From: Batkoa obscura
Lineage: Eukaryota
Direction: 5' to 3'
Assembly (NCBI GenBank): GCA_030770535.1
Contig: JASVEC010000028.1
Location: 1 to 64,000 of the forward strand
Length of the DNA: 64,000 nucleotides
Notes under the pieces: model-generated
The model's input: only the letters and a program-made list of their open reading frames with translations
What the model was told of the DNA's origin: nothing
The model's database searches: none
Shown here: piece by piece, positions 1 through 64,000 of the stretch
How the letters are laid out: each line of letters begins with the position of its first letter
Numbering within the stretch: the first letter of the stretch is position 1
Made by a program: the position numbers and the translations under genes

Positions 1-1001
1 CCTAACCCTAACCCTAACCCTAACCCTAACCCTAACCCTAACCCTAACCCTAACCCTAACCCTAACCCTAACCCTAACCCTAACCCTAACCCTAACCCTA
101 ACCCTAACCCTAACCCTAACCCTAACCCTAACCCTAACCCTAACCCTAACCCTAACCCTAACCCTAACCCTAACCCTAACCCTAACCCTAACCCTAACCC
201 TAACCCTAACCCTAACCCTAACCCTAACCCTAACCCTAACCCTAACCCTAACCCTAACCCTAACCCTAACCCTAACCCTAACCCTAACCCTAACCCTAAC
301 CCTAACCCTAACCCTAACCCTAACCCTAACCCTAACCCTAACCCTAACCCTAACCCTAACCCTAACCCTAACCCTAACCCTAACCCTAACCCTAACCCTA
401 ACCCTAACCCTAACCCTAACCCTAACCCTAACCCTAACCCTAACCCTAACCCTAACCCTAACCCTAACCCTAACCCTAACCCTAACCCTAACCCTAACCC
501 TAACCCTAACCCTAACCCTAACCCTAACCCTAACCCTAACCCTAACCCTAACCCTAACCCTAACCCTAACCCTAACCCTAACCCTAACCCTAACCCTAAC
601 CCTAACCCTAACCCTAACCCTAACCCTAACCCTAACCCTAACCCTAACCCTAACCCTAACCCTAACCCTAACCCTAACCCTAACCCTAACCCTAACCCTA
701 ACCCTAACCCTAACCCTAACCCTAACCCTAACCCTAACCCTAACCCTAACCCTAACCCTAACCCTAACCCTAACCCTAACCCTAACCCTAACCCTAACCC
801 TAACCCTAACCCTAACCCTAACCCTAACCCTAACCCTAACCCTAACCCTAACCCTAACCCTAACCCTAACCCTAACCCTAACCCTAACCCTAACCCTAAC
901 CCTAACCCTAACCCTAACCCTAACCCTAACCCTAACCCTAACCCTAACCCTAACCCTAACCCTAACCCTAACCCTAACCCTAACCCTAACCCTAACCCTA
1001 A
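1..1001. repeat. Telomere, (CCCTAA)n / (TTAGGG)n, about 167 perfect units
   Basis: Uninterrupted CCCTAA hexamers from position 1. Confidence 0.99.
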
Positions 1002-1180
1002 AAATAACCCTAACCCTAAAAATAACCCTAACCCTAACCCTAAAAATAACCCTAACCCTAAAAATAACCCTAACCCTAAAAATAACCCTAACCCTAAAAA
1101 TAACCCTAACCCTAAAAATAACCCTAACCCTAAAAATAACCCTAAAAATAACCCTAACCCTAAAAATAACCCTAAAAATA
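1002..1180. repeat. Proximal variant telomeric repeats: CCCTAA interspersed with AAATAA
   Basis: About 11 AAATAA units, mostly as CCCTAA-CCCTAA-AAATAA; ends at ...cctaaaaata|tctcttg. Confidence 0.95.
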
Positions 1181-54188: not shown

Positions 54189-54947
54189 AGCAATCAAAAG
54201 TAGCACTTTGAAGCATTTTTGATCAATTTTGTTTGTATAAATTTAAAATATTAACCTCTTTTGTTCCTTTTCTTAAAATAAGCCGGTTTTAAAATAAAAT
54301 AATTCATAGAATTAAAATAAATTTTAAATTAAGTTATATTGCGAATTGTAGTTAAATTTGTAACTGAAATAACCATCTTGTTTTAAACAAATATATTTAA
54401 TAAATACTGTTTTCAGATAAACTGATTAGTTTTGAGCACAAATAACAGTTTAAATTAGAATATCAATAAATTAAAAAATATTGTTATATTGTTGTTAGAT
54501 AATACTAATATGAGAATTTCTCAGTTCAATTTTGTCCATTTATTAGATAGCTTAAAATTTAAGAAATAAGCAAGGGTGGAATGATGATGCTATCAATTTT
54601 CAAAAGCTAATAAGTTAAGGTGAAATAGAGGTAAAGTATAAATAAACTTTTCAATTTTAAAATTAATTTAACCTTAAAATCAAGATATAATAATGTAGTA
54701 AAAATAAAAGATCATAATACTGATTTAAGGTTTAAAAACTATGAATAAATCAATAAAAGTAGTAAAAATGAACTTTTTTTTTATAATTTAATGATTTAAA
54801 TGCGCTATATGCCATATTAAGTTCTATAAATACTACATGCTTTTGATATGGTACTTCATCCCGCTTCCCTGATTAAATATTTCATAATAATTTTTAAAAT
54901 ATACATTTCCTTATACGTTCTATATGCATTAAAGTTAAAAATAAAAT

Positions 54948-55045
54948 GGGGATGTATTTTTTTGTTTAAGAATTTTACTAACAATTTTTCTACTCAAATA
55001 GCGCTTAAAAGATGGAAAAAGTAATGAAACCAAAAAAAACCCCCC
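54948..55045 (+). mobile_element. MITE copy 15
   Basis: TSD AAAT/AAAT. Confidence 0.93.
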
Positions 55046-55289
55046 AAATAATAATTATACACTCTGATGAAGTGTTTTAAAAAATACTTGAAAAGTTATG
55101 AATACGATTAGATAATTCCGATTATCTTTTATAATACTAAAACATTAGCTTAAATTGTATGAGATAAAAAATACAGTTTAATTACAATTAAAAATTTGAT
55201 AAACTATTGGATGTATAATTTTATACAAATTTGTGTTGATATCTAATTATTTTCACAAGAGTATAAATATTTAATATCACTTATGTTAT

Positions 55290-55724
55290 TTAATAACACC
55301 ATAGTGACCAATAATTTAAGTGTAAAAAGGAGCTACTATAGCCACCTTTTCCATAATCACCATCTCTACAAATATAGTTGAAGAAAAACTCAGGGTTCTT
55401 TTCATTGATGCCTTTAGTGGTACTAATTCTAGCTGAAAGAAAATCTTGATCACGTAACCATAATATCTGTTGTAAAAATGTTTTATAAGTATTTTCACTA
55501 TGTATATCTAAAGATGCCCCTTTTCTAGCACATACACAGACATTTACTTGTCTTTTTGCGTATTGTTCAGCACCATCTAAAACAAGTATTGAAAAACAGC
55601 TATTTAAGTCTTCTGGAAAGCTCTCCATATTTTCTGGTAGATCTTCAATAGCATAACTTGAATGGGTATGAATTTCAATAGCATCCACAATTACAAAAAA
55701 TAAAATAAAGCTATAAAAATACAT
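55290..55724 (-). CDS. Small secreted Cys-containing hypothetical protein at the left edge of the viral-like block
   Basis: 144 aa intronless ORF with signal peptide MYFYSFILFFVIVDA. Confidence 0.65.
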   Translation of the reverse strand: MYFYSFILFFVIVDAIEIHTHSSYAIEDLPENMESFPEDLNSCFSILVLDGAEQYAKRQVNVCVCARKGASLDIHSENTYKTFLQQILWLRDQDFLSARISTTKGINEKNPEFFFNYICRDGDYGKGGYSSSFLHLNYWSLWCY

Positions 55725-56236
55725 TATAAAAATATTTTTAATATTAGATAGCTTATATACAATTTGAAGATATTCTATATATTATGTTTGTAACCATTAT
55801 TTCTAGATATACACAACTGTATAATTAATTCTAAACAATATAATATTTAAAAACATTTTAATATGGAATTTGAATATAAGTACGATTCTAGCAATTGTAA
55901 AACTTCCAAAGAGGGTTTTAAATACCAGTATATATTAGAATCTAAAACAAAAGAATACACATACAATAATTTTTTATTGGTTAATGAAAATAGAATAAAG
56001 TAAAACTTTTTGTCTCTGATAAATAATTCTTTACAAAATCTATTACTCTATTTAACAAGCAGTTTAATCAAAACAATTATGTTAACTCGAAATATTATCT
56101 TCCATCTATCAGAGAAGATACTGGAACAGAAGGTAATATAGATTTAGAAGAAGATGATACATCTGATAAAACTTTTATATGTTTGATATTAAACATTATA
56201 AAAAACTTTTCAGCCCTTTGATATACTGATATATAT

Positions 56237-56852
56237 ATGGTTATATTTACATCAAAAGATGCACTATTTTCAAGACAAGAAAAACTGTTAGTAAACTCCA
56301 TGAAAGGACTAGATATATCTGATAAGTATCTATTGGAATATAGTGTTGCAAAGTTACAAGATAAATTTGTAATTGTAAATCTTAAAGATGTTAAACAACT
56401 AAACACTGCTGATATTGTAACACTTTCGGAGATAAAAAAATCTAAAGTATCTTATGTAAAAGATCTTAAAGGGTGCTACTATTATGCATTTGAGTTTAAT
56501 GATTCAAACAATACATTATCTTTATCTCAAAATAATTTACCTGTATCAGGATGTTGGAAGAATCATATCCATACTTGTTCTACTTATGATATTGATTATA
56601 TCAGATCATTATTTAAAAAAGGTGTAAAAATTGTATACATTTATGAACCAATGGGTTATAGATGGATATCAAGTGATAAGAAATATATGGGGGTATTTTT
56701 TTTGGTTTCATTATTTTTTCTACCTTTTAAGCGCTATTTGAGTGAAAAAATTGTTAGTGAAATCCTTAAACACAAAAATACATTCCCATATTGAGTTGCT
56801 AAAGCTTATAAAAGATAAAGATATTGAAAAATTCTTATCTACAGAATTATAA
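56237..56852 (+). pseudogene. Hypothetical viral-like protein (170 aa when restored) interrupted by a MITE
   Basis: Removing 56689-56787 plus one ATAT restores ...SSDKKY-IELLKLIKDKDIEKFLSTEL*. Confidence 0.75.
56689..56787 (-). mobile_element. MITE copy 16
   Basis: Reverse orientation, TSD ATAT/ATAT. Confidence 0.93.
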
Positions 56853-56876
56853 CAGTATAAAAATTTGTTTGTATAT

Positions 56877-56975
56877 GGGGATGTATTTTTGTGTTTAAGG
56901 ATTTCACTAACAATTTTTTCACTCAAATAGCGCTTAAAAGGTAGAAAAAATAATGAAACCAAAAAAAACACCCCC
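56877..56975 (+). mobile_element. MITE copy 17
   Basis: Near-identical inverted partner of copy 16; flanks ATAT/ATAA. Confidence 0.92.
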
Positions 56976-57012
56976 ATAATATAAATACAAACGCCTTAAA
57001 TAAATAGTTCAA

Positions 57013-57255
57013 CTAGTTTATATACACAAACATTATATTGTTTCGAATAAGAATCTCATTTACTGTAAATGTATTACTGGTATTATTATAGTAAAATAAT
57101 GTATCCAAGACACCTTCCATTTTTTGAGTGTACTTAAATATTTCCACTTCTTTTCTAATATTATATTCCTCATCTTTATAAAAAGTATCGCCGTTTATTT
57201 TCCAAGACATTTGTTTTTTATTTTTGTTAAGATGGTAAGATTTTATATATTTCAT
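57013..57255 (-). CDS. Hypothetical viral-like protein (80 aa)
   Basis: Intronless ORF divergent from 57348. Confidence 0.5.
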   Translation of the reverse strand: MKYIKSYHLNKNKKQMSWKINGDTFYKDEEYNIRKEVEIFKYTQKMEGVLDTLFYYNNTSNTFTVNEILIRNNIMFVYIN

Positions 57256-57347
57256 CTATTAAAATAATTACAACTTTTTTCTCAAATCAATTATAATAAA
57301 ATAAATTATTTTTGTTATAAAAGTATTAGAGATGTTTTTTTATAATA

Positions 57348-58543
57348 ATGTCTGATATTAGATTTTCTAAGATTAAATCTGTAGCAAAAAATTATAGACT
57401 CAAGATAAAAAATAATCGTAATATTCATATAGAGTCAGATTATGATTATTGCTATCATGATGCCGAAAAATGGTATTATAAACATAAAAAATATGATTAC
57501 CAATTTATACAACCCAACCCACATTCTTTTATTGATATAGAAAACGGTTACGAATATATAAATTGTGTTGAAAAACTTAGAAAACCTTTTAAAGTGTCTA
57601 CATTAATTTTAGATTTTATCTACTTTAATGGATTTGAATTCGATTATGGTGGAAAGTTTGTCTATACTGATGTAAACATAGAACAATTATTCACAAAAGT
57701 TAATGAAACAATTTTGCTACAGAGAAGTTCTTAAGATTGATATACCCTATGTGGTTAATAGACAAAATATGCTATATTATTCCAATCCATTTGTGTTCGA
57801 TAAGTTTTATTTTAGATATAATCTTGATAATTTTACAGTTTATGAAGATGATTTAAATGAAGATGATTTAAATGAAGATGATTTAAATGAAGATGAAGAT
57901 GAAATGATTGCATTTGGAAACTGTATTTATATAGCTGAACCAGGTTGTTATTTAGCCGTTAGTTTAAATGGTTTTAATAAAAATCATCCTATTATTCCAA
58001 AGGTTTACAGGAAGAAAACACTCGCTAAACAGAAAAGAAAACAACTTTATAATCCTAGAAAGATAAACGAACTGTTAAAACCCTCTACAATTATAAAGAA
58101 ATGGAAATATATACCATATTTTAAGTTTACAAAACTTTATATAGATATTAGATGCATCACAGTGTTAAAAAATATTTTTAATATAAATATTAGTGTTGCC
58201 CAACCAACATTTTATAATATAGATAATGTTAAAGAAAGACATAATATTATTACATGTATCGATTCAAACAATATAAATATTACAAGAATTACAGATAAAC
58301 CTCTTTGGATTATATACTATAAACAATTTGATCACGTAAATATCATTACAGATATTGATCAAGCTAATGAAAATGATATATTTACCGATGAATCTCATAC
58401 AACTATTTTTATAGATTCTAAAGAAAGACCTAGTGTTTAATATAGCTGGCAAAACATATATTCTAATAAACTCTATGACTATTCATGAGATTAAATACGA
58501 AATAGCAAATATTATTGAAGGATATGCATTAATGAAATTATAA
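57348..58543 (+). pseudogene. Hypothetical viral-like protein, probably one gene broken by two frameshifts
   Basis: Overlapping ORFs 57348-57734 and 57703-58440, plus a shifted tail (...LVFNIAGKTYIL...YALMKL* ending 58543); contains (EDDLN)x3 at ~57844-57888. Confidence 0.55.
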
Positions 58544-58622
58544 AAAAAAATTTGTAAAAAAAAATTTTTTTTAACTGAATATTATTTATTTATACCAAAT
58601 TTTAAATATAATCAACTTACGT

Positions 58623-60446
58623 ATGTTATTATATCATCAAGAGTTTGCAAACAATTTTATCAGTCCAGATAACAATAACAGATCAGTATTACTTTTGTTT
58701 AGTACTAGAGCTGGTAAAAGTTTTACTACCATAAGTATATGTGATTCATTTCTAAACAGTAACTTATATGGTTATTATGAATATCCGATTATTATAGGTA
58801 AAAGTGATATAACAAATCTTAACTTTAAAAAACAAGTAGAGTTATATAACAAAAAATATAGCAGAAAAATGAAAATGAAGTATAAAATTATATTTAAAAC
58901 CGATAATTTAAAACTAAACAATGAATATAGATATATTCTTATATATGATGAAGTACATCATGTTAGAAAGATAAATAAGCTATATAGTAAAATTAAGATA
59001 CCTAAGGGTGTTATATTATTTTTAACGGCTACAGAATATATAGATAAAGTAGAAGGATTTTATGACATTATGGATTTATTACCTCAGAAAATATTCTTAA
59101 ATATACCAATAATGAATGTAATGTAAGGGTTACATATAAAGGGCAAAATGTTGGATATAAATATCCAGTTGTGTCTCTAGAAATGAGTAAAACACAAAAA
59201 CAAGATTATGACAGAATACCCAATACCAGTATAAGATGTGAAAAAGTTTACGAAACAATAATGTCAAACAGTTTGAGGACAAAAATAAAAAATAAAATTT
59301 CCAACATAACTATCGAAGATCTACAAATACATCAAATAGAACTATATACAATGATTAAAAATCCAAAAAATCTAGCATATATTTATTGTGAATATATTCA
59401 AGAAAATGGTATACAGTCTATTGTGAAGGTATTAAAGATTATTATACCAGATATCAAAATAGCCATATATACTAGAGAAACACCTCATTGTGAATCAATA
59501 GTTGAAAATTTTAATGATCCTTCAAACATAGATGGAGATATATATAATATAATTATAGGTAGTAAAATTATCAGTGAATCAATATCTTTGAAGAATGTTA
59601 AACAAGTACATATACTTACTCTACACTGGAATTATAGCTTGATAGATCAAGTTATTGGAAGAGCTATACGCATCAACTCATATGTCCCTGGATCTACTAT
59701 TGAAATATTTATATGGTAAAAAATAGTATAGACAAAATAAAGTTGAATATCTCAAGAAGTAAACATAAACAAGAAATGTAGATAGTTACAATTTTATAGA
59801 TATCAACAAACAGATAAAAGATTATAATATACATAAGAAGCTTGGTAGTATAGAATGTAATCTTAATAGTATATCTATAAGTTCATCTCAAAAATTTATA
59901 GAGGATAATATTTCAATAGATAAATCAAAACTTATAGAGATGAATCTCAGAGATAAAATATCATACATAGAACAGATTGAAGATCCAAGTGTTTATGAAT
60001 CTATAGTTTTTAAAGACGATGAGAAATTTGTACATATTTTATATTATTCTACATAACTTAATAATAATCATCATATATCTTCTAGTAATTATAAATGTAT
60101 TGGTAAAACAAGATATAGATATATCAATGAACAACCCTGGTACTGGTATCAAGGTGATGAACAACTGGTAAAAGAACATTTTGAATCTAGACTTAGAAAT
60201 CTAAAATCTGATCATTATGTTTTAATAAGTCATACAGATAGGAAAAAAGGGTATGTCTATATTAAAGACGATGGAAAAGATCTAAGAAAACGTAGCAGAG
60301 GTAAAGATATAAATACGATGTTATGGAAAGAAATAATACCTTTGGCAACTTTTTTAGATATTAAAATAGACAACAAAAGGATAGTTATAATAGAAAGACG
60401 TGTACATATATTGATAAATCAAGGAAAGCTTGTATATCATCACTAA
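58623..60446 (+). pseudogene. SF2 helicase/ATPase of the poxvirus D6/D11 (VETF small subunit / NPH-I) family, frameshifted
   Basis: HQEFANNFISP, LLLFSTRAGKS (degenerate Walker A), YDEVHH, LTAT, ISESISLKNVKQVHILTLHWNYSLIDQVIGRAIR. The frame continues through shifts near 59100, 59715 and 59770 and a TAA at ~60054 to ...LVYHH* at 60446. Confidence 0.85.
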
Positions 60447-61408
60447 TATAATCCAAATATAATACGAGATGTATTACTTTTACAATCATCTACAGAGTTA
60501 TTTATGGCAGCTTGTTTAAGTGTATTATATGAATTTTCAAAAGCCATATCTGCTATAAAACCTTTATTTAGTTTCTTATGACCACTAAAAGTTATTGGTA
60601 TAAGTTCATAACAATTCGATATAGGATTTAAGAAACACATTTTATCTACAATATATGTAATTTCTTGCAGATAGTTTTCACCAACTATATCTAACAATCC
60701 TTCTGTAATTGCTTTTTTTGCTCTTTTAATAACATATACATCATATACTTGTCTTATACAAGATGTTCTAACATTAAAGAAATATTGTGATAATTCTTCA
60801 AGATTACTTCCCAATGTTACATATTTTGTCTTAGATATTTCAGTGACTGCTCTAATACCTTTAATACCAATACAAGTCTCGTTAAGAATCTCATATATTT
60901 TTCTCGGATAACATTCCACAACAATAGCACAATCAAATTCGTGAGATAATGCAACTAATAAATCTCCAAAATAGTTTCCGAATTCCCAGAGAGATAATCT
61001 GTGTTCGTATAGTTTTTTTAACTTTATAGTATAAACCTCACTGTATCTATCCATCATAAACAAATCTAAACCTGGATATTTATCCGTTACAGATTCTACA
61101 TGAAAAAACAGATTACGATATACTATTTGTAATGGACGTATCTTATATTCTTTCAGATCTTTTTCATGATTAAATCCATATTTATCTTTTATAATACAAT
61201 TACCATCACTAGATAGTTCTATTATATCAAGACATCTTTGGAAACCATTTGTAAGATTACCTGTATTACGAAATGCATTAAGTGTGTTTTGTACTAATGG
61301 TCTCATAATTGTCTGAGCCATATCTATACCGTCATCCATTTTAATAACATTTATCTTTTCATCATCAGATAAATAATGTTCGCTATTGTAAGATTCAGAA
61401 TTAGACAT
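60443..61408 (-). CDS. DNA-directed RNA polymerase largest-subunit C-terminal part (RPB1 domain 5 / archaeal A''-like), stand-alone
   Basis: AQTIMRPLVQNTLNAFRNTG (cf. AQSIGEPxTQMTLNTFHxAG), GFQRCLDII, IKGIRAV, TLGSNL, MAFENSYNTLKQAA...DDCKSNTSRIIFG. Confidence 0.85.
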   Translation of the reverse strand: MSNSESYNSEHYLSDDEKINVIKMDDGIDMAQTIMRPLVQNTLNAFRNTGNLTNGFQRCLDIIELSSDGNCIIKDKYGFNHEKDLKEYKIRPLQIVYRNLFFHVESVTDKYPGLDLFMMDRYSEVYTIKLKKLYEHRLSLWEFGNYFGDLLVALSHEFDCAIVVECYPRKIYEILNETCIGIKGIRAVTEISKTKYVTLGSNLEELSQYFFNVRTSCIRQVYDVYVIKRAKKAITEGLLDIVGENYLQEITYIVDKMCFLNPISNCYELIPITFSGHKKLNKGFIADMAFENSYNTLKQAAINNSVDDCKSNTSRIIFGLY

Positions 61409-61443
61409 TTTTATAAAGGTATAGTTTTAATTATTTTATTGAA

Positions 61444-63327
61444 ATGAACTTACGTTTTCAAAGAATGTCTTATAAATGAAAATTTTATAATAATTATGCT
61501 ACTAATGCAGCTAATGAAGAAATAACATTTGATGGTTATAAATTTATACAAGATTTGAATGGAACTTATAACTCTATATCTGGTAATAAATATCCTAAGC
61601 AGTATATAAATTATGCATCTATTTATAACAAATTAGAAATATACAACCAATATGAGTTACAAAAATATGTAAAGATATTTTCGTTTGATATTATTTTTAT
61701 GACATGTATTATAGTTCAAGAGAATAATACCACTAGACGATATACACTTAAACAAAATTTTTCAGAATTTTTTATTATTTTAGAAGATGAGAAACCTAAT
61801 GTTATTACTGGATATAATATTTGTGGTTATGATTTTCCAAAAATAATAGAACAGATTGGTACAAACAGTTATAATGCTATAAATTTAGGATGGGAGTCAT
61901 CAGCTTTTGGAAAGAATAGGATCAAATACATAGATTTACCATTTGCCGTTGTGATAGATTTATATCTCATTATAAAACGTGATTATATTTTAGAATCTTA
62001 TTCTCTGAATGAAGTTTCAAAACATTTTCTTAAGGAGACTAAGTATGATTTGTCTTATAAACAGATGTTTAAACTATATGAACGGAATAGTTTTGATGAA
62101 ATAGAAAAATGTTGTTTACAAGATACACAATTAGTCATAAATCTTTTTAATAAGATGAATATTTGGATTGGTCTTTGTGAACTTTCTGAGTTAACATATA
62201 CACCTATTAAGGAATTATATACAAGAGATCAGACATATAGGTTAAAAAATATGTACTATTATGAGTTTATAAAAAGAAATTATGCGTTTGACTATAATGG
62301 TTCTAAAATAAATTATGATAAAAGACAATGGGCATATAAAATTTTAATAAACTCTATATACGGTGCTTTTGGAGCTAGGGGAGTTTTATATAAACTAGAT
62401 ATTGCACAACTAATTATAAGGGTTGGTAGAGAGAATCTTATAATTTCAAAACAAGTTATAGAATCATATGATGGTTTCTTAGTGTTCTATGGAGATACAG
62501 ATCCTTGTATGGTAAAATATGAATTTAGTATATATATAGTTCCTAAGATAATAGAAGATGTTTGTTCCAAAACAGAGATATTCTTGGAAATGGAAAACGA
62601 GTTCAAAACTTTTCTACTGGTATCTAAGAAAAAATATATTGCTAAAAAAGACGACAATACCATTTATAACAGAGGATTGAGTGTTCAAAGATTATTTTGT
62701 AAATTTATTAAAGAATTACTAAAACAAGTTTACATAATGATTTTAGACAATAAAGGTCCCAGAAAGTATATAAAAGAACAGATCAAACAATTATTAGCTG
62801 GAAATATTGACAACGATAGATTGATAATGAAAACAAATCTTAAAGAAGAATATAATAATGTTTGTGCTAATAGTATATTTCGAAATAATATAAAGTCTGA
62901 ATTCAATGAATCATTTGGAGCAGTTGAATATTATTACAGTTATCCTAGAGTAGAAGATTTTATCAAAGATCATAATTGTAAAGATAAAATGGGGTATTGT
63001 TATTCTTTGGAACCAGATAACATAGGCTGCATACTATACCTTAGACAGTTGAAACAGATAGATACAGTACTAAATATAATATATAAAGAAATTATAATAT
63101 AAAAATATACGAAAGCCAAAAAGAATTTGAGAGAAATAAATGTAAAAACATATATGAATGGTGAAGGATATATATTTTTAGAAACTCCAGAATATGTTAC
63201 AGATGGAATAGGTCTTATTAATGGATATATGAAAATAGATCATAAAAATATATTAATAAGAGAATGGATAAAGAATAAATATAATAAGAGTAATCCACTT
63301 CACAAATCTATGATAAAATACATTTGA
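61444..63327 (+). pseudogene. Family B DNA polymerase (RNA-primed delta/NCLDV type), internally deleted
   Basis: SFDI (ExoI, altered), ITGYNICGYDF (ExoII), SYSLNEVS, CLQDT (ExoIII), QWAYKILINSIYG, YGDTDP, KKKY. Motif A (DxxSLYPS) is absent. ATG 61444, ORF 61555-63102 and ORF 63127-63327 share one frame, with stops at 61477 and 63100. Confidence 0.88.
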
Positions 63328-63502
63328 ATACATTAAATCTAATAACAATAACTATATACTCTTTATATATATATATTATTAACAAAAAGCTATTATATAT
63401 ATAAAAATATTATGATAGTTCTTTAAAAAAAATATTTTTCTTTTTAGAATATTATAACAATACAAAAATTTTAATATTTATTGAGTTGATTATATTAGAA
63501 CT

Positions 63503-64000
63503 ATAAAAATATTATTATTGTTTGCTTTATCACCTCTAGTTAGTTGTGAAGATATTATCCTCCAACCTTCTGCTATTTCATATATTACTCCTCAGGTAAA
63601 TTCTAGATCGGCTGTTGATACAATGGATTGGTTTTATGACAAACATGCCTTTGAAACTGTTAGTAAAGCAGATCCAAAATTACCGGAAAGAAATTTATCC
63701 CGTAGATTTGATATCTATGACTTTGAAAAAGAAATTACTGATATAGAAAACAGTATTAAAAGTGCTTTCTATCCATCGATTCTAACCGATGGAATAACAT
63801 TATTAACTACTAAAACAGATAATGCTAATGACAGTGCTAATTTCGGAGCATTAGTTGGAACAATGGATTATTAGAAAGCACAAAAAGCAACGGTTTATTC
63901 TAAAGTAGATAATATTTATGAGAACACCAGAGCAATGTTTGATAAAGAATCTAATGGTAACGCAAAGTTTCAAAGAGATATTGGAAAAGGTCCTAAGTTG
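63503..64000 (+). pseudogene. Decayed secreted protein gene, running off the window
   Basis: ATA-KILLLFALSPLVSC reads as a signal peptide with a lost ATG; in-frame TAG at 63872; the frame stays open to 64000. Confidence 0.6.

What the first reader, a model, noticed from the sequence alone, without database searches (positions are those of the whole stretch)
58623..60446. Compact ~600 aa D6/D11 helicase: possible link between NCLDVs and fungal cytoplasmic linear plasmids
Seen: stitching the frameshifts gives ~600 codons, with a C-terminal region not shown in the ORF track (SIDKIKLNIS...FVHILYY...IGKTRY...W...DLRKRSRGKDI). Inference, from memory and unverified: the size and this tail resemble the helicase of yeast killer-plasmid virus-like elements (pGKL2 ORF4 type). 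The neighbouring polymerase, however, is RNA-primed delta/NCLDV type rather than the protein-primed PolB those plasmids use. A plasmid-like helicase, a split RNAP and an RNA-primed PolB together would fit a virus lineage intermediate between Nucleocytoviricota and fungal virus-like elements.
Basis: inference. Interest (0 to 1): 0.7.

Follow-up and report, generated by a model that had tools for sequence, protein, structure and literature searches.

The report
Fungal giant-virus fossil, killer-plasmid cousin
A broken helicase gene sits beside an RNA-polymerase and a DNA-polymerase gene in what is likely a fungal chromosome; it is likely the fossil of a known group of large fungal DNA viruses, whose helicases are likely the closest viral relatives of the helicase of yeast killer plasmids.

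Summary
Observation confirmed: 58623-60446 is a 608-codon SF2 helicase broken by three frameshifts and one stop, 58-78% identical to an intact 621-aa protein whose cluster includes Conidiobolus coronatus. It lies next to a stand-alone C-terminal RNA polymerase subunit and an internally deleted RNA-primed PolB, the gene order reported for fundsalphaviruses (Gong 2020). A related strain shares the insertion with different lesions (pN/pS about 1.1): a decaying fossil. The plasmid link is partly real. Plasmid (VLE) helicases, this helicase and fundsalphavirus-type helicases form one clade (993-995 of 1000 bootstraps, ignoring or omitting poxvirus D6). The capping-enzyme gene lies head-to-head with the helicase in 13 of 18 such loci and 0 of 235 others, as in one published VLE gene table. 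But this copy groups with the viruses (930-974) rather than the plasmids (14-49), and its tail is virus-type. A sister position to plasmids is not rejected (AU p 0.13-0.34) and some core shortenings are shared; pox D6 as plasmid sister is not rejected either. A 2022 preprint already grouped plasmid and moss-EVE helicases. Verdict: known kind of fossil, compact deep-branching variant, useful lead on the plasmids' viral parent.

The parts
58623..59099 (+). Helicase pseudogene piece 1: Q motif, Walker A (glycine replaced), DEVH, motif III
   Evidence: tblastn P0001 q1-159, 78%; Pfam ResIII
59075..59716 (+). Helicase piece 2: second RecA domain, motifs IV-VI
   Evidence: q152-366, 66%; Helicase_C; vaccinia D11/D6 hits
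59707..59772 (+). Helicase piece 3 (SIDKIKLNIS helix)
   Evidence: q365-386, 68%
59778..60446 (+). Helicase piece 4: shortened fundsalphavirus-type tail, in-frame stop at 60054-60056, terminal D.K..RG module shared with VLE and other NCLDV-type helicases
   Evidence: q389-621, 58%; alignment A1; tail profiles
60443..61408 (-). RP1c: stand-alone C-terminal part of the largest RNA polymerase subunit, 321 aa, open frame
   Evidence: Rpo1C hit; RP1c family profile E 1.7e-10; alignment A7
61480..63102 (+). RNA-primed family-B DNA polymerase, open frame of 540 codons but lacking motif A; predicted inactive
   Evidence: Pfam DNA_pol_B and exo1; best locus hits are fundsalphavirus-type PolBs; alignment A6; sister to them at 87/87
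57330..58440 (+). Two overlapping intron-less ORFs upstream of the helicase, probably one frameshifted viral gene (inference); family unknown
   Evidence: no Pfam hit; weak Atlas lead to DUF5757/VETF-large at 0.77 not confirmed by hhalign
56686..56978 (.). Host MITE-like element (106-nt inverted arms, 98%) that cuts the ORF at 56222-56794
   Evidence: 16 blastn matches to one arm in the window

Best explanation
This is a broken helicase gene in a small cluster of virus-type genes that is likely a dead, chromosomally integrated fragment of a fundsalphavirus (a Pimascovirales-related nucleocytovirus of early-diverging fungi), and its intact ancestor likely served the virus's own cytoplasmic RNA polymerase as a DNA-dependent ATPase. 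Shown: the four-piece gene, its intact 621-aa relative, the RP1c and PolB neighbours, the shared locus and independent lesions in a second strain, the tree positions. Inferred: the protein was of the D6 / early-transcription-factor small-subunit type (about 65%; D11/NPH-I type otherwise), working with a split RPB1, RPB2 and the capping enzyme; the fragment entered a subtelomeric region and now decays neutrally. The Conidiobolus-type helicase is the deepest branch of the fundsalphavirus-type helicases, and the yeast/zygomycete VLE helicases are the sister of that whole group. So the plasmids' helicase most likely came from a fundsalphavirus-like virus in a fungal cell, while the small size of this copy most likely arose in parallel.
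For: Intact relative clusters with C. coronatus KXN68574.1, a species in which Gong 2020 list fundsalphavirus DNAPs. Gene order POL-RP1c-Helicase_C-DEXDc in their Neocallimastix elements equals the window's. Twenty metagenome loci with the nearest long helicases carry the same gene set: D5, split RP1n/RP1c, RPB2, RPB5, UDG, capping enzyme, RNA-primed PolB, HET. Window PolB is sister to 8 such PolBs against 5 others (87/87). Helicase core tree, 76 rows x 365 columns, LG+C20 PMSF: this+virus+VLE 743 of 1000, or 993 ignoring the wandering pox D6; this+virus 974; this+VLE 14; VLE+D6 10; VLE+D11 0. Without pox, adding 54 terminal columns (53 rows): 995, 930, 49; trees that pull VLEs out of the clade are rejected (AU p 0.010, 0.009). 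31 of 35 VLE tails score best on the fundsalphavirus-type profile; pox tails score under 6 bits on all non-pox profiles. Capping enzyme head-to-head with the helicase in 13 of 18 virus loci, 0 of 235 others; ORF2 capping (-) and ORF3 helicase (+) in D. hansenii VLEs (PMC8472843 Tables 4-5). Run X1: same region at host-like contig depth about 26, other lesions, 31 non-synonymous to 9 synonymous among 40 of 45 listed changes, pN/pS 1.15. Foldseek top hits are ascovirus and iridovirus helicases.
Against: The protein is on a long branch (1.4-1.5) and the branch joining it to the viruses is short (0.06-0.08; 80/80 and 93/83). With pox included, AU rejects only VLE+D11; this+VLE (0.34), VLE+D6 (0.52), VLE outside (0.10) and VLE+Pimascovirales-like (0.13) all stand. 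Core segments are shortened at the same places as in VLEs (49 residues against VLE 33-43 and virus 66-97 between Q192 and K241), and its tail scores higher on the VLE profile (26.0) than any of 31 virus tails (max 20.5). Pairwise and profile PDB scores slightly favour D11 over D6. The virus group is called fundsalphavirus from gene content and order; Gong's own sequences could not be fetched. No named asfar-, pitho-, marseille- or entomopoxvirus sequence is in the trees. The window itself has no capping-enzyme gene upstream. A preprint places the VLE RNA polymerase beta subunit with eukaryotic RPA2, not with these viruses.
Confidence: 0.62

Rival explanations
1. Stepping stone: the compact Conidiobolus-type lineage is the specific sister of VLE helicases, a reduced fundsalphavirus-like replicon from which the plasmids took their transcription genes.
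For: FastTree sister position at 83; AU p 0.34 and 0.13, delta lnL 4.8 and 2.5; shared shortening at three core segments (41/43/54, 55/56/66, 49/42/83 residues for this / VLE median / virus median); highest VLE-profile tail score outside VLEs; VLEs occur in the same phylum, Zoopagomycota.
Against: 14 and 49 of 1000 bootstraps under the mixture model; tail keeps the virus motif and lacks the VLE motif; it is shorter than VLEs at four other segments, so the lineage shrinks generally; whole-protein profile score 240 (virus) against 181 (VLE); two long AT-rich branches can attract.
Confidence: 0.22
2. The element is an ordinary fundsalphavirus fossil and the grouping with VLEs is an artefact; VLE genes came from a poxvirus-like or other donor (Sykora 2018) or from a pre-NCLDV ancestor (Koonin, Krupovic and Yutin 2015).
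For: VLE+pox D6 not rejected (AU 0.52) and VLE-outside not rejected with pox present (0.10); LG+G4 drew D6 into the clade; RNAP tree of Sykora 2018 favours poxviruses; one gene only.
Against: Even the constrained VLE+D6 tree sits next to the virus group; pox tails lack the terminal module; AU rejection without pox; the head-to-head capping/helicase pair; an independent preprint tree joins plasmid and moss-EVE helicases inside the marseille/asco/pitho/irido clade.
Confidence: 0.12
3. The locus is an integrated VLE or plasmid-virus recombinant, or the breaks are assembly errors in a live gene.
For: Integrated VLEs exist in early-diverging fungi; the first frameshift lies in a short A run and is not covered by run X1; X1 lacks three of the window's lesions.
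Against: PolB is RNA-primed type; RP1c is 321 aa against 130 aa for the VLE small subunit; no terminal inverted repeats around the cluster; a nonsense change, a 4-base indel, a Walker A change, X1's own lesions and pN/pS about 1 indicate real decay.
Confidence: 0.04

Closest known systems
Fundsalphaviruses (Gong, Zhang, Han 2020, PMC7017919)
   Same: Endogenous in early-diverging fungi including C. coronatus; RNA-primed PolB, D6/D11-like helicase, RPB1 split into RP1n and RP1c; order POL-RP1c-helicase; stops and frameshifts.
   Different: Helicase 608-621 aa against 769-995 aa in the 31 metagenomic relatives; branches outside them; PolB internally deleted; RPB2, RP1n, D5 and capping enzyme not in this window.
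VLE helicase YKP4 / pGKL2 ORF4 (P05470) and relatives on pSKL, pPac1-1, pPE1B, Coemansia VLEs
   Same: Similar size (560-734 aa), same clade, shared terminal D.K.RI...RG module, shortened linkers at similar places.
   Different: Different mid-tail motif; VLEs use protein-primed PolB, a fused beta/beta' RNAP with a ~130-aa small subunit, and terminal repeats, none seen here.
Pimascovirales D6-like helicases (irido-, asco-, pitho-, marseilleviruses)
   Same: Sister group of the whole clade (997 of 1000 ignoring D6); top Foldseek hits; homologous tail.
   Different: 853-1180 aa in the rows used; capping enzyme not head-to-head; tail score only 14 bits.
Poxvirus D6 (VETF small subunit) and D11 (NPH-I)
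   Same: SF2 core and similar length (630-638 aa); the only solved relatives.
   Different: Unrelated tails; D11 sits in another clade; D6 is on a very long, unstable branch.
Mycodnaviridae (PMC13533422) and fundsbetaviruses
   Same: Nucleocytoviruses of fungi.
   Different: Reported as related to Algavirales/Imitervirales and to asfarviruses respectively; not compared by sequence here.

Membership tests
Fundsalphavirus EVE | RNA-primed PolB grouping with fundsalphavirus DNAPs | tested here: inconclusive
   RNA-primed type met; sister to 8 metagenomic fundsalphavirus-type PolBs at 87/87 with only 5 outsiders; Gong's named sequences not available
Fundsalphavirus EVE | RPB1 split, with stand-alone RP1c | tested here: met
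Fundsalphavirus EVE | D6/D11-like helicase adjacent, order POL-RP1c-Helicase_C-DEXDc | tested here: met
   window map against text of Gong's Fig. S2; strand not readable from that text
Fundsalphavirus EVE | Integrated in a fungal nuclear genome with decay | tested here: met
   telomere repeat and eukaryotic genes; X1 contigs carry the region at host-like depth and run into flanks; lesions. Fungal host is inferred from the C. coronatus relative
Fundsalphavirus EVE | D5, RPB2, RPB5, RP1n, methyltransferase nearby | tested here: not met
   profiles of these families found nothing in the window's six frames; Gong report variable content, with C. coronatus elements showing POL alone
Cytoplasmic VLE (pGKL2-type helper plasmid) | Protein-primed PolB | tested here: not met
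Cytoplasmic VLE (pGKL2-type helper plasmid) | Helicase inside the YKP4 clade, with the WD..CF..N..KISW tail motif | tested here: not met
   VLE clade 100/100 without it; motif in 34 of 35 VLE proteins, absent here
Cytoplasmic VLE (pGKL2-type helper plasmid) | Terminal inverted repeats | tested here: not met
   only the MITE arms in 54500-64000; the element may be truncated
Sister lineage of VLE helicases | Exclusive clade with VLE helicases | tested here: inconclusive
   14 and 49 of 1000 bootstraps, but AU p 0.34 and 0.13
D6 / VETF small subunit type | Groups with D6-like rather than D11-like helicases | tested here: inconclusive
   separated from the D11 clade by a 97/97 branch, but pox D6 is unstable and PDB scores slightly favour D11
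D6 / VETF small subunit type | Binds a VETF large subunit and early promoters | not testable with these tools
   upstream ORF not confirmed as large subunit

The most novel reading that the evidence does not exclude
Fundsalphaviruses are the missing nucleocytovirus parent of fungal killer/helper plasmids: a polinton-type protein-primed replicon captured their head-to-head capping-enzyme/helicase pair and split RNA polymerase inside an early terrestrial fungus, and the compact Conidiobolus lineage fossilised here is the closest surviving relative of that donor, possibly already a reduced, capsid-less cytoplasmic replicon. (Probability given is for the whole statement; for the first half alone, fundsalphavirus-like donor of the helicase, about 0.65.)
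Probability: 0.2. Interest if true: 0.8.

Novelty: new variant of a known kind. Interest (0 to 1): 0.52.

Why it matters
Recent VLE papers state a dual origin (Nucleocytoviricota transcription genes plus a polinton-type polymerase) without naming the virus donor and call the origin enigmatic; the standing candidate is poxviruses. Here a fungus-infecting lineage is a concrete, testable donor, backed by a helicase tree, a shared tail module and a shared gene pair. The clade itself was glimpsed in a 2022 preprint (plasmid plus Physcomitrella helicases inside the marseille/asco/pitho/irido clade, read there as plasmid-to-moss transfer; the passages searched do not mention Gong or Neocallimastix). 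The word fundsalphavirus occurs in one paper only of the library, and searches listed nothing joining the two. The locus itself is a dead fossil of a known kind.

Tried and rejected
No whole genome is held. P0001 alone found no relative in viral contigs. Records behind the pox and metagenome loci are not searchable by handle, so capsid and A32 genes were not sought beyond the fetched flanks; none appeared among the 89 ORFs scanned, which says little. No RNA holder listed. Run X1 does not cover 58600-59345. Upstream ORFs as VETF large subunit: Atlas 0.77 only, hhalign probability 0.1%; left open. The tail cut and hhalign values were faulty and replaced. treekit's own AU run did not finish; AU tests were done with short constrained searches (10-12 iterations), which can overstate rejection. 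The AlphaFold model (pLDDT 69, tail mostly under 60) served only for the Foldseek search. No complex prediction was run. Rows: 76 and 53 were hand-picked from 319 proteins and 384 loci; P0070 (truncated) was dropped; pox rows were dropped from the second tree. In the synteny count 2 of 20 virus loci and all pox loci were left out for having under 1.5 kb upstream; the 235 others include repeats of one contig and non-orthologous helicases, and the virus loci are related to each other.

Full report
Setting. The window starts with about 1.2 kb of CCCTAA telomere repeat, is about 25% GC and carries eukaryotic genes such as ATG9, a histone deacetylase, a cyclin and a UDP-glycosyltransferase. No whole genome is held. 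The host is inferred to be an early-diverging fungus because the closest relative of the helicase clusters with a Conidiobolus coronatus protein.

Observation. The interval is 608 codons long. A search with the middle piece found one close relative, P0001, 621 aa, 66% identical. tblastn of P0001 against the window gives four collinear pieces, 58-78% identical, separated by frameshifts near 59090, 59710 and 59773, with an in-frame stop at 60054-56. The quoted tail peptides are present. Downstream lie a 321-aa ORF like archaeal Rpo1C and a 540-codon family-B polymerase with Pol delta as best solved match. Aligned with intact relatives, this PolB lacks motif A and about 110-130 residues, so it is predicted to be inactive.

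It is a fossil. Run X1, a related strain at about 95-96% identity, holds the region in contigs of depth about 26, like the host flanks. It lacks the window's lesions at 59709, 59773 and 60054 but has its own: indels at 59456, 59918 and 60399, and a contig end with foreign sequence at 59346. Of the 40 listed substitutions (45 in all), 31 are non-synonymous and 9 synonymous, pN/pS 1.15. This indicates a shared insertion decaying independently.

It is a known kind. Gong, Zhang and Han 2020 (PMC7017919; I read parts 1-2 of 3 of the text, supplement parts 1 and 5 of 7, and search passages) describe fundsalphaviruses in 14 fungi including C. coronatus, with DNAP, D5, a D6/D11 helicase, a methyltransferase, RPB2, RPB5 and RPB1 split in two, close to Pithovirus; the moss Physcomitrella elements fall among them. 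Their Neocallimastix elements read POL, RP1c, Helicase_C, DEXDc, the window's order. Their supplement has no plasmid or Kluyveromyces entry. The nearest long relatives of P0001 were traced to 20 metagenome loci that carry this gene set: RP1c in 6, RP1n in 5, PolB in 8, capping enzyme in 15, also D5, RPB2, RPB5, UDG and HET. I call them fundsalphavirus-type from content, not from direct comparison. The window's PolB is their sister (87/87, 5 outsiders).

Test of the plasmid link. Named VLE helicases were retrieved (pPac1-1, pPE1B, pSKL; pGKL2 P05470; Coemansia), as were pox D11 and D6 and a group of 850-1180-aa helicases that includes an iridovirus-like isolate record, L146, labelled Pimascovirales-like by inference. 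FastTree on 234 rows placed P0001 as sister to VLEs at 83, inside a 99-supported clade with the virus group. With a site-mixture model on 76 rows and 365 core columns the best tree is (VLE,(this,virus)) next to the Pimascovirales-like group. Bootstraps of 1000: this+virus+VLE 743, or 993 when the unstable pox D6 is ignored; this+virus 974; this+VLE 14; VLE+D6 10; VLE+D11 0. AU tests on this set reject only VLE+D11; this+VLE (0.34), VLE+D6 (0.52), VLE outside (0.10) and VLE+Pimascovirales-like (0.13) survive. Dropping pox and adding 54 terminal columns (53 rows) gives 995, 930 and 49, rejects both trees that separate VLEs from the virus group (0.010, 0.009) and still does not reject this+VLE (0.13).

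Tail and size. The tail scores 56.7 bits on the virus profile over 166 residues, 26.0 on the VLE profile, 14 and 13 on other NCLDV-type profiles and below 0 on pox profiles; shuffles reach 7.8. It keeps the virus H..Y..YS.SS..GxTR..W motif and lacks the motif of 34 of 35 VLE proteins.

Gene order. A capping-enzyme gene lies head-to-head directly upstream of the helicase in 13 of 18 virus loci with enough flank and in 0 of 235 other loci, 29 of which have a capping-enzyme hit elsewhere. In D. hansenii VLEs ORF2 (capping) is on the minus and ORF3 (helicase) on the plus strand (PMC8472843, Tables 4 and 5 seen as passages); adjacency is read from the numbering. The window itself lacks the capping gene.

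How it likely worked. By established knowledge of poxvirus D6 and D11, and the finding that pGKL2 ORF4 associates with the VLE RNA polymerase and capping enzyme (PMC6211774, passages), the ancestor was a DNA-dependent ATPase of a cytoplasmic viral transcription machine, more likely the D6-type initiation factor (separated from D11 by a 97/97 branch) though PDB scores lean slightly to D11. Today it does nothing that I can show.

Literature. Heneghan et al. (bioRxiv 2025.10.13.682091: part 1 of 5, Discussion, passages; PMC13348850: passages) describe a dual origin without naming the donor. Sykora 2018 favour poxviruses but could not reject other NCLDVs. PMC4405056 and PMC11161782 (passages) derive the plasmids from polintons. 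bioRxiv 2022.05.25.493380 (passages only; figures and supplements unseen) already found a joint plasmid plus Physcomitrella helicase clade inside the marseille/asco/pitho/irido group, and put the plasmid RNAP beta subunit elsewhere. PMC13533422 and PMC13556262 were seen as passages. One earlier scan note reached a fundsalphavirus reading for another fungal genome; it is not evidence.

Verdict. A decayed fundsalphavirus-type insertion with an unusually compact, deepest-branching helicase. The plasmid link holds at the level of the virus group (about 0.65 for the helicase, one gene plus synteny), is partly anticipated in print, and is unproven for this copy as the specific intermediate (about 0.2).

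Noticed in passing
window 60443-63102: RP1c and the deleted PolB are open frames while the helicase has four breaks; X1's contig shows no indel in RP1c (its 28 gap letters are all accounted for in the helicase). Chance, or some constraint on these two genes.
   Followed up: partly
window 61480-63102: The motif-A-less PolB has a span similar to Gong's C. coronatus DNAP KQ964598.1:37719-39284 (1566 nt), which may mean the deletion is old and shared.
   Followed up: no
P0004/P0005: In C. coronatus-like data the helicase is intact (621 aa) on a 33-kb contig that also carries a host-type gene (P0003) and is mis-fused to it in KXN68574.1: an intact viral helicase in a nuclear genome.
   Followed up: no
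window 56686-56978 and 14 further matches: A MITE-like element with 106-nt inverted arms, very abundant in run X1; it cuts the ORF at 56222.
   Followed up: partly
window 55290-58543: Several short intron-less ORFs without family between the cyclin gene and the helicase; probably further decayed viral genes.
   Followed up: partly
L225-L255: Fundsalphavirus-type loci in metagenomes have dense, intact ORFs (contigs up to 93 kb), fungal HET-domain genes, MutS, ligase and an intein-bearing PolB: they look like extant replicons rather than fossils; no capsid gene seen in the fetched flanks.
   Followed up: partly
P0049, P0107, P0183: Deep-branching VLE-type helicases from unnamed metagenome/Logan contigs; P0049 has an RGQDINT motif like this protein's RGKDINT. 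Their genomic context could show early VLE forms.
   Followed up: no
window 63485-64000: An ORF with a hydrophobic N-terminus, continued in frame after a stop at 63872-74, no Pfam hit; marks the likely right flank of the insertion.
   Followed up: no
window 1-1180: CCCTAA telomere array grading into a variant repeat; the insertion lies 55-63 kb from the chromosome end.
   Followed up: no
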